DNA of 64,000 bases from Giardia intestinalis (taxonomy: Eukaryota), in NCBI GenBank assembly GCA_000002435.2, contig CM018790.1; one strand, 5' to 3'. This document shows, in pieces, positions 2 through 58,448 of this stretch. A program made the translations under genes and the position numbers. Numbering within the stretch: position 1 is the first letter of the stretch; every line of letters starts with the position of its first letter. The notes below the pieces were generated by a model. That model saw only the letters and a list, made by a program, of their open reading frames with translations, ran no database searches and was not told the DNA's origin.

Positions 2-1045
2 TCCATGATGTTTATCAACTCCTACAAAATGAAGATGGCTGTTATAATCGGTATTCTTCAAATGATCTTTGGTATAGTTCTAAAGCTGCTTAACGTTATC
101 TATTCACGAGACATTGTCGGGCTCCTCACTTGCTGGATCCCCGAATTTCTCTTTATGACGTGCTTCTTTGGTTACATGGTCTTTTGTATTATCTACAAGT
201 GGCTTAATGAGTGGCCAGAGGGAAGCAATCCTCCTGCCCTGACAAGCCTACTCATCCAAATGTTTTTAAGTCCAGGGAGCATAAGTCCGGAGAGCTACTT
301 ATTCAACAATATTCCCCTTCAGACCAATCTTCAGCTGGCTCTTTTCGCTATTTGCATAATTTCTGTCTTGTGGCTAGCCGTGGCCAAGCCGGTATATGAG
401 GTTGTTCAATTGAAGAAGGCAGCCAAGAAGGGGCTTGCTCATGGAGTTCCCATTTTCTCTGGTCAGGCAGCATCGCATGAAGCGGCTCCAATCACATCTG
501 AGGCAGATTTGGCCAAGGCAGATACAGATGATGCTCAGACAGATAAGACGAACTTACTCGTGAGTGACGGTAAAGATGCACAAGGTCGTGGCAGCTCACG
601 AAAGGCGGACCAAGATGACGATGACGAAGCCCATGGAGTGGGTGACATAGTCGTTCACCAAGTGATACACACAATCGAGTATGTTCTGGGAGCCATTTCT
701 CATACTGCCTCTTACCTACGTCTGTGGGCCTTGTCCCTAGCACACGCACAGCTTTCAGAGGTCTTCTATGAGCAATTGTTTACTCTCTCGTACGGTTTTT
801 CTGTTTCCGAGAACAAGTGGCTCAGCGGGGTTGTTCAGGGGGTCTCCTTCTTTGTGACGTACTCTGCTTGGTTCGGAGTCACCATAGGCGTCATCATTCT
901 CATGGAGGCCTTGTCAGCTTTTCTCCATGGCCTCCGTCTTGCCTGGATAGAGTTCAACAGCAAGTTCTATCAGGCTGAAGGATACATATTCGAACCTCTG
1001 GCTCCGGTGGAGTACACTCTTTCTCTAGAGAAGCAGGACGAATAA
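2..1045 (+). CDS. V-type ATPase 116 kDa (subunit a, V0 sector), C-terminal part; 5' end outside the window
   Basis: The ORF runs in from the window edge. It contains the conserved V0-a C-terminal TM block, including YLRLWALSLAHAQLSEVF and multiple TM helices. Stop is at 1043-1045, followed by AGTGAAT (a polyadenylation-signal-like AGTRAAY). Confidence 0.85.
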   Translation, partial: SMMFINSYKMKMAVIIGILQMIFGIVLKLLNVIYSRDIVGLLTCWIPEFLFMTCFFGYMVFCIIYKWLNEWPEGSNPPALTSLLIQMFLSPGSISPESYLFNNIPLQTNLQLALFAICIISVLWLAVAKPVYEVVQLKKAAKKGLAHGVPIFSGQAASHEAAPITSEADLAKADTDDAQTDKTNLLVSDGKDAQGRGSSRKADQDDDDEAHGVGDIVVHQVIHTIEYVLGAISHTASYLRLWALSLAHAQLSEVFYEQLFTLSYGFSVSENKWLSGVVQGVSFFVTYSAWFGVTIGVIILMEALSAFLHGLRLAWIEFNSKFYQAEGYIFEPLAPVEYTLSLEKQDE

Positions 1046-1103
1046 GTGAATTCCAGGTTGATCTTGTGCGATTATTATCTTTGCTAAATTAATTTTGTCA
1101 AAA

Positions 1104-1661
1104 ATGTGGGGTTTAAACTTTTTTATTATGGCCGTACAGCGCCAAGTATTTCTCGATGAGCCTACCACGGGACTCGACCCTGTGACAAAGCGTGCAGTTT
1201 GGCGAACAATCGAAGAGGCCAAACAGGGCAAGACCATCATCTTAACAACGCATAGTATGGAGGAAGCTGACAGCCTTGCACAGTACATCGCAATCATGGC
1301 GGCTGGTCAGCTTCGATGCATTGGAACCAAGGAACGGTTGAAGGCTCGATTTGGCTCTGGCTACAGAGTCCAGATCATTCACGTCACAGAGTCAGTTGGC
1401 CGCGTCGACGCACTTCTTGTCTGCTCAGCACCTTATATCCGTCTTGAAAAGAGGGAGCATATCCCCAATGACAAAACGCACACTCGATCCTTCTACGTTG
1501 TTCCTCAAGGGCATCCAATCTCGTACCTCTATAAAGCCCTATATAGAGAGAAGTCCAGCGGGTCTGGACTAATAAAAGAGTTTGGAGTCTCATTCACAGG
1601 CCTCGAGGAGGTGTTTTTGACCATTGCACACATGGTAGAGCCGCCGCCAGAAGGAGTATAG
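1104..1661 (+). CDS. ABC transporter nucleotide-binding-domain C-terminal fragment (ABCA-like), a probable gene remnant
   Basis: Walker B (VFLDEPTTGLDP), D-loop and H-loop (IILTTHSMEEA) are present. Walker A, the Q-loop and the LSGGQ signature are absent, and there is no space for them upstream: the V-ATPase stop is at 1045 and only an AT-rich initiator-like sequence (aaaaATG) intervenes. The ORF-caller start at 1095 is TTG; the first ATG is at 1104. Confidence 0.5.
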   Translation: MWGLNFFIMAVQRQVFLDEPTTGLDPVTKRAVWRTIEEAKQGKTIILTTHSMEEADSLAQYIAIMAAGQLRCIGTKERLKARFGSGYRVQIIHVTESVGRVDALLVCSAPYIRLEKREHIPNDKTHTRSFYVVPQGHPISYLYKALYREKSSGSGLIKEFGVSFTGLEEVFLTIAHMVEPPPEGV

Positions 1662-1673
1662 ATACTTTGGATG

Positions 1674-3815
1674 TTATACCGTCATCTCTATCCAAGCAGG
1701 GTTTATCTCCGAGACTGTGCGCATATATGCAAACGAAGTTATCACTATTTCATTATAGAGAACAAAGTTAGGGTTCTGTTTGAGGCATGAAGCAGGGTGG
1801 ATTCTACACTCTCCTGATGACCCCTCGTACGTTCTGTGATCATTACTTAGCTTTGCAACGTTAGAGATATATCCCTTTAATATACAAAAGATCACCTTAT
1901 CCTCGTCGTCCATCTCTGTATATAGACCACAAGGAGGACTCTCAGTCTCGGCTCCCGCCCCCTTTCGGGAAGCCTTACAGTATGAGTTATAGATGTCAAT
2001 GAGCTGCCGATATACATTCTTTGCATATTCTAAGCTTTTATATGAAAGGTAGTACTTGGTGCACCATGCACGCTTGTTCTCAGACTCTTCACAGTATGCC
2101 TTCCAGATATTCAGTAAAGTGATGTGGTCACCCTTCAGAGAATAAAATTGGGTTCTGGCCAGTGCGCTCTGGTCCCGTGTCTCTATGTCCACAGATGATA
2201 CAAAGACCCCGTCACACGACAAGAGAGCTACAACTCCTACCACATCCTTTACTATCTTCTTCCCGAACTTGTGTGCAGTCAAAATCGATATTGCCAGCTC
2301 TGGATCGGTAGGGAACCGGACAACCTCCCTCCCCAAAGGCGATAGGATGAGCTGAGGCTCCATCTGCGACTGATTGTCAACACCATCTTCTGTCTTCTTT
2401 ATCTGGATGCACCCCATGCGAGAAAGCTTAACTATGGCTGCCTTTTTCGCTTGGCGCGGAGGGTCAGTAATAAATTCATATGTCACAGGATTTGTTATGC
2501 CAAACGCAATAATGGTTAAGAACACAGGCATGAGATCTGTCAGCATAATCTCGGGCACATCTTGAGGCTCTAAATTTGCATATGTTTCATGGGTGTAAAT
2601 GTGGTAGCATTCTCCCTCCATTAAACGGCCCGCCCTACCCGACCGCTGAAGTATCGACGCCTGTGAGCAGGGAAGGGTTATTAGCTCCGATGTGCCCGTT
2701 GTATGATGAAACTGCTTTTTTCGCACAAACCCGCAATCCACGACATAGCGGATATTAGGCACGGTAATACTGGTTTCTGCTATATTTGTGGCGACAATTA
2801 CTCGCCGCACATTCTCGGCTGCTGATGAGAAAACCCTCATCTGCTCTGTGGTTGGGAGATTGGCATAGAAAGGCAAAACTTCTATTAGTGATGCCTCACC
2901 AGGAAGTTGAACAGTGAACCCACCTGCAGGCTTTATGGCGTCTCTGTTGGAAAATAGAGGTCCTAAAGACAACCGGTCATCATCTTCAAGGCTCTCATTA
3001 TCGTCAATACAATTTGGCCTGTTATCATCAGCACCTTCAGGCTCATACAATACACCAAACTTAGCACAGTGATTCCTGATTGCAGCAACAACATTTCTGA
3101 TCTCTAGCTCACCTGGCATGAAAACTAAGATGTCTCCGCTTTTGCAGTCCTTACAGATCTGAAGCACAGCTGAGACACACGCTTCCTGATAGCTCTTAAC
3201 AGCTTCTAGAGTGAAGTAGTGCTTAATAGGATACTGTCTTCCTTTGATGGATAGGATGGCATTTGCTGCGTGTGCTCCAAAGTAACGAACAAAGCTGGCC
3301 GCAGCGATAGTGGCAGACATGACCACCACTCGCAACTTCGGGTTTTTATCGAGCGCTGTCTTAAGAAATCCAAACAGAAGGTCGGTGCTCACGCTTCGTT
3401 CATGAGCTTCATCTACTATGACAATACTGTCAGAGTGAAAGAGTGGATCAAGTAGCGCTTCTCTAATGACTACACCATCTGTTGCATACCGTATTCTGGT
3501 TGACTTGGAAACTTTTGCGTCAAATCGAACGCTGTATCCAACCTCCTGACCCAGAGACGCGCCTCTCTCTTGTGCTACACGCAGTGCAAGTGATATAGCC
3601 GCAACCCGACGGGGCTGTGTTACTGTTATTCTTTTGATTGATGCATTAGCGTCAATAAGGTATTGGGGAAGCTGAGTGCTCTTTCCACTGCCCGTTGAAC
3701 CCACAACAACCACAACGCGCTGTGGAGAGTGTAGGATAGAATCAATTAACTGTTTCTTAATGGGATATATGGGAAGGGCGCGCTGTTCGCTCTGTATTGT
3801 GGATTGAGAAGGCAT
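1674..3815 (-). CDS. DEAH-box (DExH) ATP-dependent RNA helicase
   Basis: Motifs GSTGSGKST (I), TQPRRVAA (Ia), DEAHER (II), SAT (III) and QRSGRAGR (VI), followed by an HA2/OB-like C-terminal region. ATG at complement(3813..3815) is preceded by an AT-rich initiator. Confidence 0.9.
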   Translation of the reverse strand: MPSQSTIQSEQRALPIYPIKKQLIDSILHSPQRVVVVVGSTGSGKSTQLPQYLIDANASIKRITVTQPRRVAAISLALRVAQERGASLGQEVGYSVRFDAKVSKSTRIRYATDGVVIREALLDPLFHSDSIVIVDEAHERSVSTDLLFGFLKTALDKNPKLRVVVMSATIAAASFVRYFGAHAANAILSIKGRQYPIKHYFTLEAVKSYQEACVSAVLQICKDCKSGDILVFMPGELEIRNVVAAIRNHCAKFGVLYEPEGADDNRPNCIDDNESLEDDDRLSLGPLFSNRDAIKPAGGFTVQLPGEASLIEVLPFYANLPTTEQMRVFSSAAENVRRVIVATNIAETSITVPNIRYVVDCGFVRKKQFHHTTGTSELITLPCSQASILQRSGRAGRLMEGECYHIYTHETYANLEPQDVPEIMLTDLMPVFLTIIAFGITNPVTYEFITDPPRQAKKAAIVKLSRMGCIQIKKTEDGVDNQSQMEPQLILSPLGREVVRFPTDPELAISILTAHKFGKKIVKDVVGVVALLSCDGVFVSSVDIETRDQSALARTQFYSLKGDHITLLNIWKAYCEESENKRAWCTKYYLSYKSLEYAKNVYRQLIDIYNSYCKASRKGAGAETESPPCGLYTEMDDEDKVIFCILKGYISNVAKLSNDHRTYEGSSGECRIHPASCLKQNPNFVLYNEIVITSFAYMRTVSEINPAWIEMTV

Positions 3816-3840
3816 CTTTTATTTTTAAATAAACTTTACT

Positions 3841-4885
3841 CTCCAAGGGATTTACTCTTCTTCATCAAGGTCGGCTTGCTAGCTCCTGTCCGAGTAAACC
3901 CGTCCAGGATCCGAAGCTCGGATGCCGCCCACTCTGGAGAAGAGCCTTGTGCCTCCTCGCCCGGGGAGCCGTTGGGTGCCCCACTATGCGCTCTGGGGCG
4001 TCTCTCCTCTCTGACTGGCTTGGGTCAACCATCGTCTGACATCTAGTGAGCACCCGCTGTCTCGGGCCTTGCGTCAGTCGTGGCGATCCAGTCTCGAGAG
4101 CAGTTAACTCTGGCCATGTACTCTGGAGTAGCTTTGTGGCCCTGGTGCTCTACGACGAGGATCGCACGCCACGACTTCGGGTGTCTACCCCGTTCCTCGG
4201 GTGCCTCTTTGTCTCCCCATGACGTGGATCATCGACCCTATTGTCGGAGGTGCGCTCCCCATACGCCTCCATCTTGGAGTCATAGTACGCGTTCGTGGAT
4301 GCCGATGGAGTACTCCTATGCGTTGTGTCGGGGGAGAAGTATGGCCCTCTGCTCATGGATCGCAGGGCGCTCTTGCAGGTGGTCAGTCACTCAGCACGAG
4401 ATCATGTCAGCGCTCACCCTGTGCAGTGCGTCTGGCTCGGTGACGTGTGGGCTGGTCCATCTGCACAGCACACTTGGGTGATGCTTCGGTCTGTCGAGGC
4501 GTCGTCCAAAGCATCAGAAGCGGTCAGGACCGGTTCATCGAGGTCGTCTCTCTACAACCGGCACCCGTCTACTCGAGGGTGTCAGGCACTGCCAGCTGCT
4601 GCGGCAGACGCCTGGCGGGTGGCCCAGGTCACCGCTCTCCGGTGTGGGCAGGATCAGTCCGCCTCTGCCAACCAGACACCCCAGGGGCCCCATCTCTTGT
4701 CGAGGGACTCACATAGGCCACGTGTGGGTCCATCCTGGCCAGTGGGCAGTGATTGGTGCCATCACTGGCTCCAGGCCCTCCGTTGCCCCCTCTATCGCCT
4801 CGGGGAAGGAGGCATAAATCTTCCCCGTCAGAAGCAGACGGCATCCGACTTCGGACTTCGGATTCTGGGTCTCAGCTGGTGAACA
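3841..4885 (+). repeat. GC-rich non-coding dispersed repeat, copy A (~1 kb); direct repeat of 54508..55525
   Basis: By eye this aligns along its whole length with 54508..55525. Nearly identical blocks: 4141-4320 vs 54771-54950 with about 2 differences, and 4561-4880 vs 55201-55520 with about 7 differences. The 5' block and middle are more diverged, with several indels including a ~35-40 nt length difference near 4060-4140. No ORF is conserved between copies because indels shift the frames. Confidence 0.85.
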
Positions 4886-5250
4886 AGCAAGGGGCTTGCC
4901 TGGTATAATAACCCGCATGGGGATTTGCTCGGATTAACTTCCGATATTCCTTAAAATGAAGACGGTACTCGGCAAAACCTCAAGTAGTCTATCTTACATG
5001 ATATCACGAACTTGATAAGAAGACATGAGGGCGGCATAATTAGCCGGTAGATCGACACTAGAAAAAAGAATACCTACTATCCTTACTTCAGAGCAAAACG
5101 ATACCAAGTTAATTGGCTTAAAGTGCAAGACACAAACATGAACGGCGACTCATGAAAAACCACACATTGGGTCAATAGTTGGTGGATTTTTTCATCAAGA
5201 CAAGTAAACAGTGAAGAAAATTGAAAGCTTATTTATTGAGAAATCTCACA

Positions 5251-7761
5251 ATGACTCTTGTCGTCTCTCTTCTTCTTTTGTACGGTATTTTCTCAGAATG
5301 CGCCCAGAACAGTGACTGCGGGGGTGCGACCGGCGTCTGCAACGTCACGATCGGCGGCAAGAAGTACTGCTCCAAGTGCGACGGAGCACGGGTCCCCGTC
5401 AACGGAGACTGCAGGCTGCTGAGCCTCTCGCGGAGCATATGCATAGTTCCTACAGATAGCACCCCCACTCCAGGCTCCTGCTCGGGCTGCATCCGTGACT
5501 TCCTCTTCTACAGGGGCGGGTGCTACCGCACGGCATCCCTGATCAACGCCATATGCAAGGAGAAGCACATCGTCGAGGAGGGGATGTACTGCGGGGCGTG
5601 CGCCATCGAGGGCGACGTCCCGATCGACGGGGTGTGCGTAGCAGCAAGCGCAGATAGCTCTGGAAACACGTGTGACAAGGGCGTGTGCACGACATGTGGC
5701 AACGGATACTTCTTCCACTACGGGTCGTGCTACAAGTTCGGAGGGTCCCCGGGTGCCAACATTTGCTCTGACAGTACTAGCACTACTGGCTCTGTCTGTG
5801 GCTCTTGCGGGTCGAAGTTTGTCAAGAACCCTAGTGCGGGCCCATCTGCCACCTCCTGCTTCGCGTGCTACGGCCTGGACGGGACCCTCTTCTGCGAGCG
5901 CTGCCGGATGAACGTGCTCACGAGCACAGATGTGAAGCCCACCCTCTGTACGAAATGTAAGTCGGGGCACATCCCCCTCGATGGACGATGCATCTCCGCC
6001 TTCTCTGCTGCTTCTGCACTCGCCGGCTGCTCCACCTACAAAGGTTCAGACAATGCCATGGGACTTTGCGAAACGTGCTCCTCCGGCTACATGCTCTTCT
6101 ACGGGAGCTGCTACTCTGTCAACGGCCCCCTCGCCCAGGCCATCTGCAAGACCGAGAACCAGATCTACCTCGGGGGAAGAGTCTTCTGCAAGCAGTGCGC
6201 CCAGACAGACCACTACCCCATCAACGGCTTATGCATTGCTGATAAGGGATCACATACGTGCGAGGCGGGCATCTGCACAGCATGCGACACCAGCACAACC
6301 CCCGTCGACAACTCCAAGGTTTTCCCGTTCTATAACGGCTGCTATGATGCAAACTCTGCAATCGGAAAGCTAATATGCCAGGAGGCGTCTAATGGAGCGT
6401 GCTCAACTTGCAATACAAACGAGACATCGAATATAATAGCTAATCCTAATTCTGCAGATGGCCAACCAAAATGTCTTGGATGTTGGGACGAGGCAGCTAC
6501 TGGGGTGGCCAACTGCGGAGGGTGTGCGACCGGCACAGACGGCGATTCCAAGATCGTCTGTAGCAAGTGCACCGACTCGACGGAACCCAAAGACAACACG
6601 TGCCCTCAGGCCCTCCCGCCCACAACGCCTGAAGGATGCGCCGTCCAGGGCTGCCAGGCGTGCTCGAAGGACTCTGCCACGACGTGCGACACTTGCTTCT
6701 CTCCACTTGTCATGAAGGAGGACAAGACGAAGTGCTTCGGGAGCTGCCTTGCGCTGGGTCTTGGCTACTACAACGACGCCGGTGTGTGTAGGCCATGCAC
6801 CAGCAAGTGCCTCACGTGCACAGACGGGACCACATGCACCCAATGCGCCGAAGGGTACTATCTCGAGGTGTCGGGCGCCGGCTCAACGACGGGGACCTGC
6901 AAGGCGTGTGCCGCTGGGTGCTCGACGTGTACTGGTGCTGGTGATAGCCTCTGCTCCACGTGCGTCACAGGGTACTACGCCGCATTCAACGTTAGGCAGG
7001 GAGGACCCGGAAAGTGCGTTCAATGCAGCGTCTCTGAGGACGGGTACACTGGCGTTGAGCATTGTGCAGCCTGCTACAGCACTACAGGGCAGACAACTGG
7101 TGCCAAGAATGTGGTCTGTGAGAGCTGCGAGGACGGGTACCTTAAAGAACATGTCGATAACAAGGTCGTCTGCAACCCACCAGCCCCGAAGTGCACGGTT
7201 CCGTTGTGCGCCATATGTGTCGAAAACGACGCGATGAGGTGCGAGCACTGCACGACCGGCGCGTACCTCTGCCCGCGGACGGCGGCGTGCACGAAGGACT
7301 GCGCCAGCTGCGGCGGCTCGATGTACCCCGACGAGGACCTCGGGGAGTGCCAGCCGTGCGACATCACAAACTGCCTGGTCTGCGCGACGGGGCTCAAGTG
7401 CGAGAGCTGCGCGGAGAACGCCGTCCCCATCTCCCCGGACGTCTACCATACGGCGTGCATGGGCTGCAGCGACACCGGGGGCATGGACGGCTGGGTGGGC
7501 CTCGCGGGGTGCACGACCTGCGAGCTGACCGACAAGGGCGGCGGGAGCGTCAACTGCCTCGACCCTGGCTACTACCGGCGGGGCGGGCTCGGCGGGGGAG
7601 CAATCGCCGCCATCGTCATCGTCGTCCTCCTCGTCCTGGCCGTCGCCGGCTTCCTCGTCTGGTGGTTCGTCTTCAGGAGGGGCGGCCGGCCCAAGCGCGG
7701 GGCGAAGTACACATCGCTCATGCGGGGCGAGTCCTACGACTACCGCCAGTCCCTAATATGA
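5251..7761 (+). CDS. High-cysteine membrane protein (HCMP), VSP-like cysteine-rich ectodomain
   Basis: N-terminal signal peptide MTLVVSLLLLYGIFSECAQ, dozens of CXXC/CXC and GCY-type motifs, a single C-terminal TM (AIAAIVIVVLLVLAVAGFLVWWFVF) and a basic cytoplasmic tail that does not end in CRGKA. The ORF-caller start at 5221 is TTG; the first ATG is at 5251. AGTAAAC lies 7 nt after the stop. Confidence 0.85.
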   Translation: MTLVVSLLLLYGIFSECAQNSDCGGATGVCNVTIGGKKYCSKCDGARVPVNGDCRLLSLSRSICIVPTDSTPTPGSCSGCIRDFLFYRGGCYRTASLINAICKEKHIVEEGMYCGACAIEGDVPIDGVCVAASADSSGNTCDKGVCTTCGNGYFFHYGSCYKFGGSPGANICSDSTSTTGSVCGSCGSKFVKNPSAGPSATSCFACYGLDGTLFCERCRMNVLTSTDVKPTLCTKCKSGHIPLDGRCISAFSAASALAGCSTYKGSDNAMGLCETCSSGYMLFYGSCYSVNGPLAQAICKTENQIYLGGRVFCKQCAQTDHYPINGLCIADKGSHTCEAGICTACDTSTTPVDNSKVFPFYNGCYDANSAIGKLICQEASNGACSTCNTNETSNIIANPNSADGQPKCLGCWDEAATGVANCGGCATGTDGDSKIVCSKCTDSTEPKDNTCPQALPPTTPEGCAVQGCQACSKDSATTCDTCFSPLVMKEDKTKCFGSCLALGLGYYNDAGVCRPCTSKCLTCTDGTTCTQCAEGYYLEVSGAGSTTGTCKACAAGCSTCTGAGDSLCSTCVTGYYAAFNVRQGGPGKCVQCSVSEDGYTGVEHCAACYSTTGQTTGAKNVVCESCEDGYLKEHVDNKVVCNPPAPKCTVPLCAICVENDAMRCEHCTTGAYLCPRTAACTKDCASCGGSMYPDEDLGECQPCDITNCLVCATGLKCESCAENAVPISPDVYHTACMGCSDTGGMDGWVGLAGCTTCELTDKGGGSVNCLDPGYYRRGGLGGGAIAAIVIVVLLVLAVAGFLVWWFVFRRGGRPKRGAKYTSLMRGESYDYRQSLI

Positions 7762-8571
7762 TTCCCCAGTAAACGGAGCTATCGCCTGCCGGTGCCTGTC
7801 TCTGAACGCGCATATCCCGGAGATGTCGACGGAGCCGAGGAGCCTCCGCACCCGCAAGCGCTCCCCCGGAAAGGGCTCGGTGTCCGCCGTCTTCGAGATC
7901 GACACGCTGCACTCTGCGGCATCCGACGCGACGCAGGAGAGGCCGTTGTGGAGCACCACCCGGGAGATCTCGCTGACGTGGACGGACAGCATGGGCCGCA
8001 GAATGCACACTCGATGCTTGGCCCTGCTGGCAAAGTCCATGACCTCGCAGTTGTAGTACCCCCGGAGCCCGAAGAAGGAGGCCCCGTGGACCCCGGTGAT
8101 CGCCAGGGTCTCCAGGTCGTCCAGCAGGTGGTGGCCGAGGGCCAGGGCGTCGTAGCCGCCGGCGGACACAAAGCTCGCCAGTGTTCCGCGGCGGCAGCGA
8201 GAGCAGACGCTGCACGCAGACGCCTTCCTGGCCTCCTGCCCCAATGCATCCAGGCGGGCGATCTTGGCTGAGACGTCCATCCCAACCACCTGCTGCTCGA
8301 ACGTCATGGCTCCCTCTGCGGCGTCGTCGATCGACAGCGCGCACGGGCAGAGGCTCCGTATCGTGTCCAGGATGAAGCCGGGTATCTTTGGGTCGAAGGT
8401 CACAGGGGTCACTTCCAGCGCCCCCAGGTCTCCTAGGCCGATGGGGTCAAACAGCCGCTTGATCATAGTAGCTGGAAGGAAGCCTACGCCTCTTCTGAAA
8501 GGACAAAAGTCGTCCGGTCTAGCCATCGGGACCAGTGGGTCAAACCGTTCAGCGTTAGAAGGAAAAGCCAT
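7753..8571 (-). CDS. Ncs6/Ctu1/TtcA-superfamily (tRNA 2-thiolation PP-loop ATPase family) homolog with a degenerate N-terminus
   Basis: The central block CSVCSRCRRGTLASFVSAGGYDALALGHHLLDDLETLAIT matches the Ctu1/Ncs6 block C..C..RR.AL..GA..L.TGHNADDIAETVLMN. LSIDDAAEG matches the SIDEG block. The expected upstream SGGKDS PP-loop and N-terminal CxxC zinc finger are not found in any frame. The gene overlaps the HCMP 3' end by 9 nt (convergent). Confidence 0.55.
   Translation of the reverse strand: MAFPSNAERFDPLVPMARPDDFCPFRRGVGFLPATMIKRLFDPIGLGDLGALEVTPVTFDPKIPGFILDTIRSLCPCALSIDDAAEGAMTFEQQVVGMDVSAKIARLDALGQEARKASACSVCSRCRRGTLASFVSAGGYDALALGHHLLDDLETLAITGVHGASFFGLRGYYNCEVMDFASRAKHRVCILRPMLSVHVSEISRVVLHNGLSCVASDAAECSVSISKTADTEPFPGERLRVRRLLGSVDISGICAFRDRHRQAIAPFTGESY
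7768..7774 (+). promoter_or_regulatory. Giardia-type polyadenylation signal AGTAAAC downstream of the HCMP stop
   Basis: AGTAAAC lies 7 nt after the TGA at 7759-7761. Consensus AGTRAAY is established for Giardia. Confidence 0.5.
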
Positions 8572-52446: not shown

Positions 52447-54567
52447 TTGCTAGTAACAGTGCAGTTAGCGGCTTTGCAGAGCCGATGGGCGCTGGTGGCA
52501 TCCCCGTGCTCAGCGGGGGCCTTCAGTGTTATCTACTCTCCCAAGGGATGCCCCCACCTCACTGTGAAGGAGATCCGGCTCGACGGTCTGGATCAGCACG
52601 GTGTGGATGCTATTAAGCGTAGGCTGGCCGCCCTTCTTAACATCTTTCACCCGGGTCCTCAAGTATCATCAAGTAGTCGAGGACGAGGGCCTCATCTACG
52701 TCGTCACGGACCGGCACGACAAGACCCTCGAGCACCTCCTCGCCGAGCACAAACGAAGGAAGACCCCCGTCCCCATTACTATGATCCTCTCCGTCATGAA
52801 GCAGGTCGCCGCCGCCCTCGCCTACCTCCACGGCCTCAGCGAGGTAAGTGCTAACAGGCTTGTCCACCGCGACCTCAGGCCTACCAATATCCTCATCAGC
52901 GCAGATGGTGAACACTTCGTCATCGCCGACTTCGGCCTCTGCAAGGACGCCCTGTGGAGTGGGAGTACTCTCATGGGAGTGGCGTACATGGCCCCCGAGA
53001 TTCTCCTCCGTAATGAGACCAGCCATGCTTCCGACATGTGGAGCCTCGGGGCCATCATTTATGAATTAGTAACTCTGAGGAGACCGGACTTCTTGGGGGG
53101 CAAGGAGCCGGCAGAGGTCTTCGTCGATGGGTGGAGACCAGACCTGAGCGGTCTCACTGATGGCTTCATGCAGAATGTTCTGGAGGGGATATTCGTATTG
53201 GAGCCAGAGAGGAGGCCGACGGCCAGGGAGCTGCACGAGACGCTCGCTACATTCGACATCCCAGTTGGTGAGTTGGGAGGTCAGTGCGTGATGCTGAAGT
53301 ATAAGTGCGGATCCTTGGAGGCTGCGCTGAATGGCGCTAACGCCAGGATCGCGTTGCTGGAAGAGGATGTTAAGATTAAATCTACTAAGATCGACGCACT
53401 TGAAGACCAAAGTAAGGAACATCTAGCTATGATTAAGGCACTGGAGAATAAGCTTGCACAGTTCGATGACAGGATGAACACGACTGACCCTCAGTCCAGC
53501 CTCTTTTTGTTGCCCGGGCTGATGCGTGCCGCGCATACGAATAGCACGGAGACCGTCTGGATGCTGCTTGAAGAAAGACTCGGTGTTGGTCAGCGCGACG
53601 AGCAGGGGCGCATCAGTCCCGTCGAGTTGCTTGTTGGGGAGGAGAACGGTCTCCAGGACAAGAATGGCTGGACTACCTGATGATCGCCACAGAGGAGGAC
53701 TATGCAAGAGCTGCCTCCCTTCTGGTCCCATATGAGAAGGACCGGATCGGCAGCGAAGGCAAGACGGCCTTGGTGATGCGGCAGAGGCAGGACATGGAAC
53801 CGTGGTGGAGGCCATCGACCCAACCGATGAGAATGGCATCACAGCACTCATGCGAGCTGTTAATAGAAACGACGCGGGGGCTGTGAAGGCAGTCATACTT
53901 AGCCAGAGAAGGAGGAAAACATACAAAGAGGTCACAAGAAGCGGATGGTACATGCGCAAAGGAACAGCTCTGATGATGGCTGCGGCAATGGATACGCAGA
54001 AATAGTAGAACTGCTAGCAGAGCACGAAAAGGGAGAGAAAGTAGGCGGTTGGGCCGCTCTCGTATTCGCGGCACTGTGCAATCGTTCCAATGACCCCCTG
54101 GTGGACTATATTGGGCACGTTGAGCTTTTGATGGAGTATGAGAGCAGTATCTCAGGGTGGACGGAGCTCATGTATGCAGCAGCACGAGGGCACGAAGGAA
54201 TCGTAGAGCTACTCGAGCAGGAGACTGGCATAAGGAACAACGAGCATCAGACTGTCCTCACATGGACGGTGTGCAATGGCCATCCAGAGTGTGTCAGACC
54301 CCTGCTGAAGGACGAAGGCGGCATGCAAACGACCAAGGGGGGATCGCCCTTATGAACGCAGCATATAGCAACGCCGTGGAGTGTGTAAGGCTTCCTAAAG
54401 AAAACGAGAAGGATCTGAAGACAACCTGCAGTTGCTATGATCACTCGCCCGGTACCACTGCTTTCGACATCGCTAAGAAGAAGGATCACAAAGAGATGGT
54501 AGGCATCCTCTCAAACGAGATCTACTCTGTTTCAACAATGTCGGCTTGCCAGCTCCTGTCCGAGTAA
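52447..54567 (+). pseudogene. NEK-ankyrin kinase pseudogene with multiple frameshifts
   Basis: Recognisable kinase and ankyrin segments: GAFSVIY...TVKEI (52447 frame), HRDLRPTNILI...DFGLCKD...YMAPE...DMWSLGAIIYEL (52601 frame), a coiled coil, then ankyrin units (GKTALV.., NGITALMRAVNRNDAGAV.., GWTELMYAAARGHEGIVELL.., GGIALMNAAYSNAVECV..). These are split over at least six reading-frame segments (frames 1,2,1,0,2,1), implying five or more frameshifts. The last codons and stop lie inside repeat copy B. Confidence 0.75.
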
Positions 54568-55525
54568 ACCCGTCCAGAGTCCGAAGCTCGGATGCCGTCC
54601 ACTCTGGAGAAGAGCCTTGTGCATCCCGCCTGGGAGCCGTTGGGTGCCCCACTATGCGCTTCGGGGCGTCCCTTCTCTCTGGTCCGTCGGGGTCAGCCAT
54701 CGTCTGACATCTATTGAGCTCCTGCTGTCCCGGGCCTGCCGTCGGTCACAGCAGCCTGGCCTCCACGTGGCCCTGGTGCTCTACGACGAGGATCGCACGC
54801 CACGACCTCGGGTGTCTACCCCGTTCCTCGGGTGCCTCTTTGTCTCCCCATGACGTGGATCATCGACCCTATTGTCGGAGGTGCGCTCCCCATACGCCTC
54901 CATCTTGGAGTCATAGTACGCGTTCGTGGATGCCGATGGAGTACTCCCATGCGTTGTGTCGGGGAGAGGTCCGGCCCTCTGCTCACGGATCGCAGGGCGC
55001 TTTTGCAGGTGGTCCGTCACCCAGCACGAGATCATGTCAGCGCTCACCCTGTGCAGTGCGTCTGGCTCAGTGACGTGTGGGCTGGTCCATCTGCACCGCA
55101 CAGCACGCTTGGGGGAATGATTCGGTCTGTCGAGGCGTCATCCGAGGCATCAGAAGCGATCAGGACCGGTTCGCCGCTTGGTTGTCCCGCTCGGCAGCCG
55201 GCACCCGTCTACTCGAGGGTGTCAGGCACTGCCAGCTGCTGCGGCAGACGCCTGGCGGGTGGCCCAGGTCACCGCTCTCCGGTGTGGGCAGGATCAGTCC
55301 GCCTCTGCCAACCAGACACCCCAGGGGCCCCATCTCTTGTCGAGGGATTCACATGGGTCACGTGTGGGTCCATCCCGGCCAGTGGGCAGTGATTGGTGCC
55401 ATCACTGGCTCCAGGCCCTCCGTTGCCTTCTCTATCGCCTCGGGGAAGGAGGCATAAATCTTCCCCGTCAGAAGCAGACGGCATCCGACTTCGGACTTCG
55501 GATTCTGGGTCTCGGCTGGTGAACA
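54508..55525 (+). repeat. GC-rich non-coding dispersed repeat, copy B; direct repeat of 3841..4885
   Basis: See copy A. The 5' end overlaps the last ~20 codons, the stop and the AGTAAAC signal of the NEK-ankyrin pseudogene. The 3' end abuts the Kelch gene. Confidence 0.85.
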
Positions 55526-55655
55526 AACGAGAGACTGCCAGCCTAGTGCGGCGGTGGCTCGCACGAGGGGGTTTATCCGGGTAGCAGTCGGCAAACCGAC
55601 CTTTTTGAACAGAGTAAATGGGAGACAAGTCTCAAAAAAGCAAATTGCCAAGGTC

Positions 55656-58448
55656 ATGCCAGTTTCCCTTTCTTGGGTTCAGGTTACTACTCCAGGAGCA
55701 CCAACTCCGCGCTACGGATGTTCCATGGTCCCAACGGCTGATGGGATTCAAATCTTTGGCGGCTATTCAACGCATTATCTCAACGAGTCTTTATCTTTTC
55801 AGTCACAATCAGAGCCTAAAAAGTGGCGTCTGCGGCGGCGATCCCGGCCATACCCTGCAGGGAGACGAGGACATATCATGGTAGGACTTGATGAATGCCA
55901 GCTTTTATTTGGAGGAGACTTAGGCTCCGCATGCGTCAATGATCTGTGGATATGCACTGGCAGCGAATGGCGTCAGATCTTTGGGCATTCAGATACAGGA
56001 TCTTCGCCTTCTGGTCGCTATGGCCACGCCGGCTGCGTTCAAAATTCGTGTCTGTATGTGTTCGGCGGAGCCGATCGCTATCAGCAAACGTCTATGTTTG
56101 GTGACCTTTGGGTATTGGATCTTACTACCTTACGTTGGAACAGAGGGCCAGAAGGCCCATCTCCAAGATATGGGCACTCAATGGTCACAGTGGGCAAAGA
56201 TATTTTCGTAATTGGTGGAATGACCCAGAGCGGACTTGCTGGGGATGTCTGGCGCTTGTGTGTCAATGAGAGTCATGCGCTGTCGTGGGTACAGCTAGAC
56301 CCTGTTTCCAAGACTCAGATTTTTCCGCCACGAACAGAGTTTTTCGCTACCGAGCTTTCTCCTTCCTCAGTGTTGCTATTCGGTGGTTCATCAGCACAAG
56401 CACCGCTTAATGACATGTGGATTCTCAATCTTAATACTCAGCAACATCTATACACTCCAGTCTGTCTTCAGATACCCTCTACGCTTCCCGTCCCCAGACA
56501 CGCCTTTGGTGCCATAACCACATCAACCGGTACCATCTCCTCTGCGCATGGGTCTGAAATAGCTGCAGAATTTGGAGGACGTGATCAGTCGTTAATCTGG
56601 CTGACAGACTTGGGATCAGTGTACACTCCTGACCATACCAGCAGCAGCTCCTACACATTATTTAATGGCTCATTTATAAAGCTATATATATTCGGAGGCA
56701 GAGGAGCAGATTCTTCCTTGAATGATCTCTGGGAATGTACGGTATGCTTGCTTGAAGAAACGGCAATGACTTACGGTATCCAGGAGACCAAGCTTACAGA
56801 CCGGAACAGACTTGCAAACCTTGGTACTAGCTTTAGTAATATCAACTATCCCCCCAACTCCGACATCGATCTTTATCGCAGCGGAGATTCGTTTGGAGAA
56901 TACAATAGCCGCACTCTTGGGGCACCAAGTACAGACATTTATATATCTCATTTGACTGAAGAAAGGTCTTTTCTATATGATAAGCCAAGCATTCAATTGC
57001 CCACTGATTCCTTCAAGCCTAACGTTCCACGGTTTCCTGAAGCACAAGAAGAGAAAGAGAAATCCTCTATTACTAAGCGTATGTCCTCTGCTAAAGACAA
57101 TGATGTACATAAGGCAAGCTTCATGGAGCACGCTAGTATCAATGACCCGTCTTTATTAAGCAACAATATATCTAGAGAGGATCACGATGCTAATGAGTCT
57201 ATAACTCCGTTTATTCACAAACCACAGCAGGCTCTAGTACGCGAAACTCTGAAGCAGCAGAGCCGCCCGTCATCTGGGGGGACCGGATCTCCTTACCGTA
57301 TGACCACATCCAATCCAGATCAGCCCGTTCAGCCCACAGATGAGGTGCAGAAGTACTTGCTAACTCAGATGGTAACCATCAATGAAAACCTTCTGAAGAT
57401 GGAGGCGGCATTCGAGGCGGCCGAACTGGCACGAAAATTCTCGGAGGATCTGGCGGAGCAATCCTCAGCTGTGGACGATCTTGCTCTAGCAGTTTCAGAG
57501 TTTAAAAATGATGTTATGCATGCCATTGAAGGCCTCTCTCAAAAGTTATCAGGATATGCAATTACCCAACAAGGACACGAAGAGGACATAGTTGAATTGA
57601 ATGGAAAATTAAATGAACTAGATAATCTAATTATTGAGCGGGCTAGTGACACTACGAGAGATGAGCTTTTTATGGAAATGCAAGTGCGAATTGCTAGTTT
57701 AACTAAGGAGAATAAAGCACTGACAGCCAGACTTACTAACGTAGAATCTTTGCTGATCGCCACAACACTTGCAAACAACCCCACTGACGAGATATTGGCT
57801 TTACTAAATGCAGTGGTCAATCAATCTGCAACTCTTCCTCTAGACATAACGACACAGCCGGTTACGGGTGTATCCAAGGAGAGCCTCAAGCCTGACACGG
57901 CTACTACCTCAGCATCGTCACAGGTCACTGGAGCAACACTGCAAGGTGTATTCGATGAGCTTCAAGAAATGGGAAAGAAACTCAATGCGCTAAGCAATAG
58001 TATTGGAACAAAATCACAACTCTCTATGCTGCCTAGCGATATTGGGGATGAGAAGGTTACAATTCAATTTGATCAACCCAGACAACGGGGCCAGCCACAA
58101 CAAGCTCGACAATTCCAAACACCGTATCGAAACGAACAGATGGCGCCACATTTTGACAGTCAACAGCGTATGCAACAAAGAGTAGAACCCAGGACACGTC
58201 AAGGTGCAGTAATCTCCCCCCGTTCAGCGGTGACGCGCACTTCAGCCATGTCACGAAGTTCCGGATCACTTTCTACATATGTAGCTGGGGAAGATCAGCG
58301 TGACACTGGTAGGCCAACGTCTGCATTTCTGTCAGCCCAGGGACGGCCGCGGTCTTTCTCTGCCTCTACTTCTCGAAAACCAAGTAATGAGTCACTTGCC
58401 ATGATAGCAAAGGTGCTTAATGCACCAGATGAACTTTCGGATGATTGA
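55656..58448 (+). CDS. Kelch-repeat protein with a long C-terminal coiled-coil region
   Basis: The ORF-caller start at 55554 is GTG; the first ATG is at 55656. Kelch units: IQIFGGYS, QLLFGGDLG..NDLWIC, GRYGHAGCVQNSCLYVFGGAD...DLWVLDLTTLRW, YGHSMVTVGKDIFVIGG and LLFGGSSAQAPLNDMWILN. The C-terminal ~350 aa are heptad-rich and acidic. Confidence 0.75.
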   Translation: MPVSLSWVQVTTPGAPTPRYGCSMVPTADGIQIFGGYSTHYLNESLSFQSQSEPKKWRLRRRSRPYPAGRRGHIMVGLDECQLLFGGDLGSACVNDLWICTGSEWRQIFGHSDTGSSPSGRYGHAGCVQNSCLYVFGGADRYQQTSMFGDLWVLDLTTLRWNRGPEGPSPRYGHSMVTVGKDIFVIGGMTQSGLAGDVWRLCVNESHALSWVQLDPVSKTQIFPPRTEFFATELSPSSVLLFGGSSAQAPLNDMWILNLNTQQHLYTPVCLQIPSTLPVPRHAFGAITTSTGTISSAHGSEIAAEFGGRDQSLIWLTDLGSVYTPDHTSSSSYTLFNGSFIKLYIFGGRGADSSLNDLWECTVCLLEETAMTYGIQETKLTDRNRLANLGTSFSNINYPPNSDIDLYRSGDSFGEYNSRTLGAPSTDIYISHLTEERSFLYDKPSIQLPTDSFKPNVPRFPEAQEEKEKSSITKRMSSAKDNDVHKASFMEHASINDPSLLSNNISREDHDANESITPFIHKPQQALVRETLKQQSRPSSGGTGSPYRMTTSNPDQPVQPTDEVQKYLLTQMVTINENLLKMEAAFEAAELARKFSEDLAEQSSAVDDLALAVSEFKNDVMHAIEGLSQKLSGYAITQQGHEEDIVELNGKLNELDNLIIERASDTTRDELFMEMQVRIASLTKENKALTARLTNVESLLIATTLANNPTDEILALLNAVVNQSATLPLDITTQPVTGVSKESLKPDTATTSASSQVTGATLQGVFDELQEMGKKLNALSNSIGTKSQLSMLPSDIGDEKVTIQFDQPRQRGQPQQARQFQTPYRNEQMAPHFDSQQRMQQRVEPRTRQGAVISPRSAVTRTSAMSRSSGSLSTYVAGEDQRDTGRPTSAFLSAQGRPRSFSASTSRKPSNESLAMIAKVLNAPDELSDD

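What the first reader, a model, noticed from the sequence alone, without database searches (positions are those of the whole stretch)
3841..4885. Direct ~1 kb GC-rich non-coding repeat, two copies ~50 kb apart
Segments 3841-4885 and 54508-55525 align end to end on the same strand. Both are markedly more GC-rich than the flanking DNA. Neither has an ORF conserved between copies: indels shift the frames, and substitutions in the short shared ORFs are not biased toward synonymous sites. This does not look like a coding gene family, rRNA or a VSP fragment. It could be a non-autonomous mobile or segmentally duplicated element, or an unannotated structured ncRNA family. Copy A sits 5' of an HCMP gene; copy B sits between a NEK pseudogene and a Kelch gene, with a VSP gene 3 kb away.
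Basis: seen in the sequence. Interest (0 to 1): 0.6.

Follow-up and report, generated by a model that had tools for sequence, protein, structure and literature searches.

The report
Decayed mobile-element copies in Giardia
The two GC-rich 1-kb repeats are real, but they are two shortened, non-coding copies of a many-copy dead mobile-element family in Giardia, probably the published GilD/Genie 2 family, so the finding is largely ordinary.

Summary
Window 3839-4886 and 54508-55526 align on the same strand at 88.8% identity. Indels break the reading frames, substitutions show no codon periodicity, and the copies are 60-62% GC.

It is not a two-copy curiosity. Related copies (74-88% identical) lie on at least five contigs of isolate DH. 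A third WB locus exists, and there are many in other Giardia assemblies.

Full-length relatives are about 3.1-3.2 kb and end in imperfect inverted repeats of about 50-170 bp. Copies A and B keep both ends and share one internal deletion of about 2 kb.

Isolate P15 (assemblage E) has the element at both orthologous sites. Assemblage B contigs show none. The P15 copy at locus B is the long form, so WB copy B probably took on the A-type structure by ectopic gene conversion. Patchwork identity among copies fits that.

No reverse transcriptase, transposase, Pfam domain or Rfam family was found.

My best reading is dead mobile-element remnants, most likely the published GilD/Genie 2 family. I could not test that identity directly. 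Interest is low to moderate.

The parts
3839..4967 (+). Copy A: internally deleted element, about 1.1 kb and 59.8% GC, lying between the helicase start codon and the HCMP upstream region
   Evidence: BLASTN pair 3839-4886 / 54508-55526. The right arm extends to 4967. GC.
3851..3929 (+). Copy A left inverted-repeat arm: outer block 3851-3901 and inner block 3904-3929, which contains the palindrome ATCCGAAGCTCGGAT. About 60 nt present between these blocks in full-length copies is deleted here.
   Evidence: Alignment of element ends A2, pairwise arm alignment, exact positions.
3986..4787 (+). Core of copy A shared with all other family copies (74-88% identity to L002-L011)
   Evidence: BLASTN against loci.
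4802..4826 (+). Junction of the ~2 kb internal deletion relative to full-length copies (GGGGAAGGAGGC|ATAAATCTTCCCC). The identical junction is present in copy B and a homologous one in P15 locus A.
   Evidence: Mapping onto L009/L011/L007 full-length copies. P15 alignment A3.
4837..4967 (+). Copy A right inverted-repeat arm: inner block 4837-4868 and a degenerate outer block 4919-4967
   Evidence: It pairs with the left arm in the predicted fold.
54508..55631 (+). Copy B: internally deleted element, about 1.1 kb and 62.1% GC, lying between the 3' end of the NEK pseudogene and the Kelch promoter
54521..54599 (+). Copy B left inverted-repeat arm: outer block 54521-54571 and inner block 54574-54599
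   Evidence: BLASTN self-hit 54520-54571 against 55619-55569, 77% over 52 nt..
54671..55429 (+). Core of copy B shared with the rest of the family
   Evidence: L011 2957-3712 matches window 54671-55429 at 88.7%. Also.
55442..55466 (+). Same internal-deletion junction as in copy A
   Evidence: identical 25-mer..
55477..55619 (+). Copy B right inverted-repeat arm: inner block 55477-55508 and outer block 55569-55619, with the ~60 nt GCAAGCC..GGCAAGC-type middle block retained
   Evidence: It pairs with the left arm in the predicted fold.
1674..3815 (-). Context: DEAH-type RNA helicase (XP_001707156.1). Its start codon lies about 35 nt from the left end of copy A.
5251..7761 (+). Context: HCMP (VSP-domain protein) downstream of copy A. 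In an assemblage-B-like contig its orthologue sits head to head with the Kelch gene.
55656..58448 (+). Context: Kelch-repeat protein. Its ATG lies about 25 nt from the right end of copy B.

Best explanation
Both segments are dead, non-coding, internally deleted copies of a dispersed mobile-element family of Giardia assemblages A and E.

The full-length form is about 3.1-3.2 kb, about 61% GC, and bounded by imperfect inverted terminal repeats. In the best-preserved copies these reach about 150-170 bp. Copies A and B keep both ends plus about 0.95 kb of the left interior. They have lost the same ~2 kb.

The family's anatomy, decay pattern and neighbourhood fit the published 'dead' non-LTR retrotransposon family GilD (Arkhipova & Morrison 2001), which I equate from memory with Genie 2 of Burke et al. 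2002. That equation and the identity itself are inferred, not shown.

The element does nothing for the cell. It persists as neutral DNA in the variable VSP/HCMP/NEK regions. Its copies exchange sequence by ectopic gene conversion. That is why A and B, two insertions older than the A/E split, are 89% identical overall and 97-100% identical in patches.

Shown: the family, its ends, the shared deletion, the ancient occupancy of both sites, and the absence of coding or RNA-family signal.

Inferred: mobility by reverse transcription, gene conversion as the homogenising process, and identity with GilD/Genie 2.
For: Family:
- An ORF from copy A finds 19 orphan ORFs from Giardia, including GL50803_30984 and five DHA2_ genes.
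- An exhaustive profile search finds 55 clusters. All but one are short ORFs of 57-315 aa, and the exception is an unrelated fn3 protein.
- DNA copies at 74-88% identity lie in L002-L011.
- P0011, a WB gene, is only 79.5% identical to the window, so it marks a third WB locus.

Anatomy:
- L009 5135-5177 and 8294-8336 form a 43-nt inverted repeat, 84% complementary and 3116 nt apart.
- The alignment of ends shows homologous left and right arms in L005-L011, WB_A and WB_B.
- L007 and L011 are collinear with L009 over about 2.9 kb.

Deletion:
- A and B correspond to L009 element positions ~130-1137 plus 3120-3290, with an identical junction 25-mer.

Age:
- nhmmer family profiles hit the P15 DNA upstream of the helicase (5e-24) and upstream of Kelch (1e-82). 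They find nothing in the assemblage-B equivalents at E <= 10.

Conversion:
- The nearest neighbour changes from one 100-nt window to the next. WB_A is 97-99% identical to WB_B in four windows but closest to L005, L007 or ENA_oA in others.
- The DH orthologue of A is 54-82% identical to WB_A in the interior windows 101-300 but 99-100% at the right-hand end.
- P15 locus B is the long form, whereas WB locus B has the locus-A deletion.

Dead:
- No Pfam hit in six frames of L009 5201-8400, in four of the six frames of the 3-copy consensus, or in the flanks. The only exception was a chance IL17 match at E = 0.13.

Insertion signature:
- An 11-nt direct repeat ATAATAAAGAA flanks the L009 copy, whose left arm is truncated (0 of 500 shuffles reach this length). 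This fits target-primed reverse transcription with 5' truncation.

Literature:
[quoted passage not shown] - The copies here sit beside an HCMP, VSPs and a NEK pseudogene and in gene-poor contigs (L009, L007).
- From my own memory, not checked: the Burke et al. 2002 abstract says all Genie 2 copies contain inverted repeats of up to 172 bp and that there are about ten degenerate copies.
Against: - No reverse-transcriptase or endonuclease remnant was found in any copy, in the consensus, or by motif search. GilD was originally recognised through reverse-transcriptase similarity.
- Two independent loci (L009, and L007/L011) have the same RT-less 3.1-kb structure.
- Terminal inverted repeats are unusual for non-LTR retrotransposons and typical of DNA transposons.
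- Only one of five complete copies shows a flanking direct repeat.
- No GilD/Genie 2 sequence or primary paper could be consulted.
- Part of the mosaic pattern could be chimeric assembly of repeats in short-read assemblies (DH, ENA).
Confidence: 0.6

Rival explanations
1. An undescribed, non-autonomous DNA-transposon-like or foldback/MITE-like family. The inverted terminal repeats would be the sites recognised by a now-lost transposase, and A and B would be deletion derivatives that kept both ends.
For: Inverted terminal repeats occur on every complete copy. Deletion derivatives retain both ends. No reverse-transcriptase trace was found anywhere. A well-conserved ~35-nt inner repeat with an embedded palindrome looks like a protein-binding site.
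Against: No transposase domain was found in any frame (same Pfam calls). There is no fixed-length target-site duplication, since four of five complete copies have none. The one flanking repeat is 11 nt long and adjoins a truncated left arm, which suits reverse transcription better. The arms are only 65-84% complementary. From my memory of the Arkhipova & Morrison abstract, no transposase-related sequences were found in this genome. The literature description of GilD fits the location and the decay pattern.
Confidence: 0.25
2. A functional non-coding RNA locus. Read-through transcription would give an RNA whose ends pair into a long panhandle. Giardia Dicer would process it into small RNAs, perhaps acting on the neighbouring VSP/HCMP genes.
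For: In the minimum-free-energy folds of A and B, the first ~100 nt pair with the last ~100-170 nt. A 27-pair inner stem is kept in six copies, and 10 of the 47 predicted pairs show a change on both sides in at least one copy. The copies lie next to VSP-family genes. Giardia makes small RNAs from retroposon double-stranded RNA (PMC2875222).
Against: The pairing follows automatically from the inverted DNA repeats. The covariation term is only -1.85 kcal/mol. L007 carries different arm variants at its two ends. The interior is lost or replaced freely. The element is absent at both sites in assemblage B. There were no Rfam hits. No expression data are available here.
Confidence: 0.05
3. A decayed protein-coding pseudogene fragment, for example of a VSP, HCMP, NEK or protein 21.1 gene, duplicated along with its neighbourhood.
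For: The copies are GC-rich like VSP/HCMP genes and lie among such genes and a NEK pseudogene.
Against: No Pfam domain was found in any frame of any copy tested. Two of the six frames of the consensus were not scanned. Cysteine content is ordinary, 7-16 per ~349 codons. There is no codon periodicity. The profile search finds only orphan short ORFs. The consensus restores no ORF.
Confidence: 0.04
4. A simple local segmental duplication of about 1 kb with only these two copies.
For: End-to-end same-strand alignment within one 64-kb window. A and B also share about 12 nt beyond the family's left terminus.
Against: Related copies lie on at least five DH contigs, at a third WB locus and on several ENA contigs. 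Both sites are already occupied in P15.
Confidence: 0.01

Closest known systems
GilD (Arkhipova & Morrison 2001, PNAS 98:14497), which I equate from memory with Genie 2 (Burke, Malik, Rich & Eickbush 2002, Mol Biol Evol 19:619): the 'dead' non-LTR retrotransposon family of Giardia WB
   Same: Same organism and isolate. All copies are dead, with substitutions, frameshifting indels and internal deletions. The copies sit in gene-poor regions next to VSP-family genes, as stated for GilD in PMC2861651. About ten or fewer loci per genome were seen. Inverted repeats of up to about 150-170 bp match my recollection of 'inverted repeats up to 172 bp' for Genie 2. One copy has an 11-nt flanking duplication with a truncated 5' side.
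   Different: No reverse-transcriptase or restriction-like endonuclease remnant could be detected in three ~3.1-kb copies, their consensus or their flanks. Identity to the deposited sequences was not testable. The equation of GilD with Genie 2 and the 172-bp figure rest on my memory.
GilM and GilT (Genie 1 / 1A), the telomere-associated non-LTR retrotransposons of Giardia
   Same: Same genome. They are reported to have unusually long 3' untranslated regions (PMC5537684), so a long non-coding element body has a precedent.
   Different: Those are about 6 kb, encode reverse transcriptase, lie in head-to-tail arrays at chromosome ends and may be active (PMC10999387). The copies here are internal, isolated, RT-less and decayed. 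The published Genie 1 primers have no match within 3 mismatches in the window or in the nine loci held at that point, L001-L009.
MITEs and internally deleted non-autonomous DNA transposons
   Same: Short derivatives that keep both inverted ends of a longer element and lack coding capacity.
   Different: No autonomous partner, no transposase and no consistent target-site duplication. The arms are long and poorly matched.
Girep-1 transcribed intergenic tandem repeat of Giardia (Chen et al. 2007, PMC1950533)
   Same: Non-coding Giardia repeat associated with VSP genes.
   Different: Girep-1 is a tandem array of 222-nt units carrying a 32-nt VSP-complementary block. The present element is dispersed, not tandem, and the Girep-1 primers do not match it.

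Membership tests
GilD / Genie 2 dead non-LTR retrotransposon of Giardia | Remnants of a reverse-transcriptase (and restriction-like endonuclease) ORF | tested here: inconclusive
   Pfam hmmscan was run on six frames of L009 5201-8400, on four of six frames of a 3-copy consensus, on L009 1-5150, and on L007 3000-6250 plus L009 8300-9361. No RT, endonuclease or any other credible domain was found. A regex search for RT motifs A, B and C and for the endonuclease PD motif found none. Frameshifted, decayed copies, or copies that have lost the ORF by deletion, could escape these tests.
GilD / Genie 2 dead non-LTR retrotransposon of Giardia | Nucleotide identity to the deposited GilD / Genie 2 sequences | not testable with these tools
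   No Giardia nucleotide database or Repbase is available. The primary papers are not held.
GilD / Genie 2 dead non-LTR retrotransposon of Giardia | All copies dead: substitutions, frameshifts and multiple internal deletions | tested here: met
   Copies are 74-88% identical. Frameshifting indels are present. There is a ~2 kb deletion in A and B, and other deletions in P15_A and L006.
GilD / Genie 2 dead non-LTR retrotransposon of Giardia | Located in gene-poor regions next to VSP genes, not at telomeres (PMC2861651) | tested here: met
   A lies next to an HCMP. B is 2.7 kb from a VSP and next to a NEK pseudogene. L006 and L007 lie next to VSP genes. L009 and L007 are contigs without long ORFs.
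GilD / Genie 2 dead non-LTR retrotransposon of Giardia | Inverted repeats of up to ~172 bp in all copies (my recollection of the Burke et al. 2002 abstract) | tested here: met
   Arms are present at every available end. L009 has 43 nt at 84% within a ~96-nt alignment, and the alignment of ends spans about 150-170 columns. The criterion itself is unverified.
Class II (DNA) transposon / MITE | Transposase ORF in an autonomous member | tested here: not met
   No transposase domain in any frame of the longest copies. The profile search returns only short orphan ORFs.
Class II (DNA) transposon / MITE | Target-site duplication of fixed length at both ends | tested here: not met
   There is no flanking direct repeat above chance for WB_A, WB_B, L007 or L011: none of 6 nt or longer for WB_A and L007, and only chance-level 7- and 6-mers for WB_B and L011. 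L009 has one 11-nt repeat. Old insertions may have lost theirs.
Structured ncRNA family | Conserved secondary structure supported by covariation, or a match to a curated family | tested here: not met
   Rfam gave 0 hits at gathering threshold and at E <= 1. The covariation term for the terminal stem is -1.85 kcal/mol, and the interiors are not conserved.

The most novel reading that the evidence does not exclude
The family is not GilD/Genie 2. It is instead an undescribed repeat family, free of reverse transcriptase and bounded by inverted repeats, in a genome reported to have no DNA transposons. Its copies are rapidly homogenised by ectopic gene conversion, even between sub-assemblages A1 and A2. 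They mark the borders of rearranged VSP/HCMP/NEK blocks. Here they mark the two ends of a ~50-kb block, and one border of that block is a demonstrated synteny break with assemblage B.
Probability: 0.25. Interest if true: 0.55.

Novelty: new member of a known kind. Interest (0 to 1): 0.28.

Why it matters
As a catalogue item it matters little. Dead transposon remnants are expected, and this family was probably described in 2001-2002.

Three side results are worth keeping.

1. Short-read Giardia assemblies break at this element. The P15 contigs, the ENA contigs L004, L005, L007, L008 and L010, and the DH contigs all end inside it. The two assemblage-B contigs also end just upstream of the same genes, although no element was detected there. 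Annotators have called dozens of spurious 'hypothetical proteins' inside the element.

2. Copies at orthologous sites differ far more than their flanks and show patchwork similarity to other copies. If long reads confirm this, the family is a convenient reporter of ectopic gene conversion. That process is thought to shape the VSP repertoire in an organism with no observed meiosis.

3. The two window copies bracket a 50-kb block. Its HCMP end lies head to head with the Kelch gene in assemblage B. This ties the repeats to a synteny breakpoint.

Tried and rejected
1. rRNA or a known RNA family. Rfam gathering scan of the whole window and E-value scans of both copies gave 0 hits.

2. Hidden coding capacity.
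- Six-frame inspection, a codon-position test and consensus ORF reconstruction from 9 and from 3 copies.
- tblastx between full-length copies showed no favoured frame.
- Pfam scans of elements and flanks were negative, as was an RT-motif regex.
- An exhaustive HMMER profile search of 1.84 billion proteins returned only short orphan ORFs plus one chance fn3 protein.

3. Link to Genie 1 or Girep-1 through published primers: no match.

4. More copies from JGI metagenomes using a conserved 20-mer: 5 chance matches with no extended similarity.

5. Primary literature on GilD/Genie 2 is not held. Text searches gave only secondary mentions.

6. Target-site duplications: only L009 has one.

7. Microhomology at the A/B deletion junction could not be resolved because the copies are too diverged.

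8. A simple inversion between the two copies as the origin of the 50-kb rearrangement. I rejected it as stated, because A and B are direct repeats and recombination between direct repeats deletes rather than inverts. The real history cannot be reconstructed from the contigs available.

9. RIP-like hypermutation as the cause of the WB/DH difference at locus A. There is a C>T / G>A excess in alignment columns 100-300, but the polarity is confounded by A/B homogenisation, so I did not pursue it.

Full report
**Source and observation**

The window comes from Giardia intestinalis WB. The 713-aa helicase at 1674-3815 (minus strand) is exactly XP_001707156.1.

A self-comparison of the window gives one repeat pair: 3839-4886 against 54508-55526, same strand, 88.8% identity over 1059 columns. 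There is no third copy in the window.

The copies are 59.8% and 62.1% GC, against 48.8% for the window.

No ORF is shared between them.
- The longest ORFs are 195 and 186 aa, in different frames.
- Seven indels (1, 1, 2, 2, 2, 6 and 37 nt) shift the frames.
- The 82 substitutions fall 28/23/31 over the three codon positions.

Divergence is strikingly uneven: 1.5% over 4135-4329 and 22% over 3960-4097.

**It is a family, not a pair**

I used the 195-aa ORF of copy A as a handle. It retrieved 19 orphan ORFs, all from Giardia. They include GL50803_30984 (WB) and five 'hypothetical proteins' of isolate DH on different contigs.

I fetched the DNA around these hits and around the flanking helicase. 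This gave copies at 74-88% identity:
- in DH contigs AHGT01000008, 092, 043, 126 and 131;
- in several contigs of ENA assemblies.

P0011 (GL50803_30984) is only 79.5% identical to the window, so WB has at least a third locus.

A profile of these ORFs, run against 1.84 billion representative proteins, finds 55 clusters. All are short ORFs of 57-315 aa except one unrelated fn3 protein.

Short-read contigs repeatedly end inside the element: P15, L004, L005, L007, L008 and L010. This is typical of a dispersed repeat. The assemblage-B contigs also end just upstream of the helicase and Kelch genes, but no element was detected in them.

**Anatomy**

Three copies are much longer than A and B:
- L009 5100-8400;
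- L007 about 170-3165;
- L011, the orthologue of L007, about 2730-5745.

They are collinear over about 2.9-3.2 kb.

L009 is bounded by an inverted repeat at 5135-5177 and 8294-8336. It is 43 nt long, 84% complementary, with 3116 nt between the arms.

An alignment of all available left ends with the reverse complements of all available right ends shows that they are homologous over about 150-170 columns.
- An outer block reads ...TTTACTCTGTTTCA..GGTCGGCTTGCCAGCTCCTGTCCGAGTAAACC.
- A middle block reads GCAAGCCACCGCCACCCTGGGCAAGC.
- An inner block, CCAGAATCCGAAGCTCGGATGCCGTC, contains a perfect palindrome.

Copies A and B carry these arms at both ends.
- A left arm: 3851-3929. A right arm: 4837-4967, with a degenerate outer part.
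- B left arm: 54521-54599. B right arm: 55477-55619.

Mapped on the long copies, A and B correspond to element positions ~130-1137 joined to ~3120-3290. They have the same ~2 kb internal deletion and an identical 25-nt junction (4802-4826 and 55442-55466).

**No coding or RNA-family signal**

Pfam scans gave no reverse transcriptase, endonuclease, transposase or any other credible domain. They covered:
- all six frames of the L009 element;
- four of the six frames of a three-copy consensus;
- the 5 kb to the left of the L009 element;
- the 3 kb to the right of the L007 element.

Other tests agreed.
- RT motif patterns are absent.
- tblastx between long copies favours no frame.
- Consensus sequences restore no ORF.
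- Rfam finds nothing at either threshold.

As RNA, each copy is predicted to pair its first ~100 nt with its last ~100-170 nt. This follows directly from the inverted DNA repeats.

An alignment of the arms of six copies keeps a 27-pair inner stem, but the covariation term is only -1.85 kcal/mol. One copy (L007) has different arm variants at its two ends. I see no evidence for selection on an RNA structure.

**Age and history**

In isolate P15 (assemblage E), the DNA upstream of the helicase orthologue is a homologous copy. It has the same ends and the same deletion junction (nhmmer E = 5e-24).

The DNA upstream of the P15 Kelch orthologue is also a copy, but of the long form. It is collinear with the right 1.3 kb of the full-length element (nhmmer E = 1e-82). 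Both sites were therefore occupied before assemblages A and E split.

WB copies A and B are nevertheless 89% identical, reach 97-100% in several 100-nt windows, and share the locus-A deletion. So one copy must have been overwritten by the other after that split.

More generally, the nearest relative of each copy changes from window to window.
- The DH orthologue of copy A is 99-100% identical to WB at the right-hand end, 93% in the left-hand window, and only 54-82% in the interior windows 101-300.
- Two A2-type assemblies (DH and an ENA metagenome assembly) also differ there, at 83-100%.

Ectopic gene conversion among family members explains this best. One caveat applies: DH and the ENA contigs are short-read assemblies, so some mosaics could be assembly chimeras.

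**Assemblage B and the 50-kb block**

The sequence upstream of Kelch in an assemblage-B-like contig (SRR3177763) is 45% GC. The sequence upstream of the helicase in assemblage B (SRR3177862) is 41% GC. Neither has a detectable match to the family profiles at E <= 10.

In the SRR3177763 contig, the gene lying head to head with Kelch, about 750 bp away, is the orthologue of the HCMP gene. Its nucleotides match window 5562-5218 at 72%. In WB that HCMP gene lies 50 kb away, just downstream of copy A.

So the two copies sit at the two ends of a ~50-kb block, and one border of that block is a synteny break between assemblages. The exact rearrangement cannot be reconstructed. A plain recombination between A and B would delete the block, not invert it, because they are direct repeats.

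**Mechanism of spread**

Only one complete copy shows a flanking duplication. L009 has the 11-mer ATAATAAAGAA on both sides (0 of 500 shuffles), and its left arm lacks the outer ~60 nt.

A variable-length target duplication next to a truncated 5' side is what target-primed reverse transcription produces. It is not what a cut-and-paste transposase produces. This is a single case. The older copies (A, B, L007/L011) show nothing above chance.

**Comparison with what is known**

Giardia WB is reported to contain three retroposon families (PMC10999387). Two of them encode reverse transcriptase (PMC2875222). [quoted passage not shown]

The family described here has exactly that decay pattern and neighbourhood.

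From memory only, Burke et al. 2002 described about ten degenerate copies of 'Genie 2', all with inverted repeats of up to 172 bp. This matches the arms found here, but I could not check it.

Against membership stands the absence of any reverse-transcriptase trace in the copies I could reach. I therefore treat identity with GilD/Genie 2 as the most likely reading, at roughly 0.6. An undescribed inverted-repeat-bounded family is the main alternative, at roughly 0.25. The test that would settle it is a BLASTN against the deposited sequences.

**Verdict**

It is best explained as two internally deleted, dead copies of a dispersed mobile-element family, kept similar by gene conversion.

It is not a structured RNA gene, not a pseudogene of a known protein family, and not a private two-copy duplication.

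Interest is low to moderate. The element itself is ordinary and probably already published. The gene-conversion mosaics and the association with a synteny breakpoint are the parts worth following up.

Noticed in passing
L013 1-1100 (Logan SRR3177763 contig 144) compared with window 5218-5562 and 55610-55717: In an assemblage-B-like genome the HCMP orthologue and the Kelch gene lie head to head about 750 bp apart, with a 45% GC spacer and no element. In WB they are 50 kb apart, each preceded by one repeat copy. This is a synteny break whose two WB borders carry the repeat.
   Followed up: partly
window 52601-54564: This is a NEK-type pseudogene. A kinase domain (Pkinase, 3e-28) lacking its N-terminal part is followed by ankyrin repeats split over two reading frames (53945-54352 and 54157-54564). 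The last ORF runs into the left arm of copy B.
   Followed up: partly
L009 5116-5126 and 8391-8401: An 11-nt direct repeat ATAATAAAGAA flanks a full-length copy whose left arm is truncated. It is a possible target-site duplication and the only one found among five complete copies.
   Followed up: yes
L009 1-5100 (ENA ERZ28528424 NODE_3463) and L007 3100-6190: These are several kilobases with no long ORF and no Pfam signal next to full-length copies. The L009 and L011 contigs have about twice the read coverage of single-copy contigs from the same sample (48-52x against 22x). They are gene-poor, possibly duplicated regions of unknown nature.
   Followed up: partly
L007 1-1900 against L011 2563-4395, and L007 1903-6373 against L011 4514-8962: Two assemblies of what appears to be the same locus are 82% identical across the left half of the element but 95% identical from its right half onward. 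This is another apparent conversion tract or an assembly chimera.
   Followed up: no
window 3904-3929, 4837-4868, 54574-54599, 55477-55508: The best-conserved part of the inverted arms contains a perfect palindrome (ATCCGAAGCTCGGAT on the left, and ATCCGACTTCGGACTTCGGAT with a 6-nt duplication on the right). It is kept in copies from assemblages A and E and is a possible protein-binding or hairpin site.
   Followed up: partly
window 55612-55655, L012 1377-1421, L013 1045-1090: The motif CAGAGTAAA lies about 40 nt upstream of the Kelch ATG and forms the outermost tip of the element's right arm in WB. It is also present at the same place in the assemblage-B-like contig that lacks the element. 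It could be a remnant, a target-site microhomology or part of the promoter. A similar tip lies about 35 nt from the helicase ATG.
   Followed up: partly
alignment A3 columns 100-300 (window ~3905-4060 against L002): The WB and DH copies at locus A differ at 59 of 157 aligned sites. There is a strong excess of C>T and G>A in DH relative to WB: 34, against 8 in the reverse direction. This could mean a decayed donor or local hypermutation. The polarity is uncertain.
   Followed up: partly
window 7718-8571 (minus strand): Two overlapping ORFs of 208 and 272 aa lie in the GC-rich stretch just downstream of the HCMP gene. I did not examine them.
   Followed up: no
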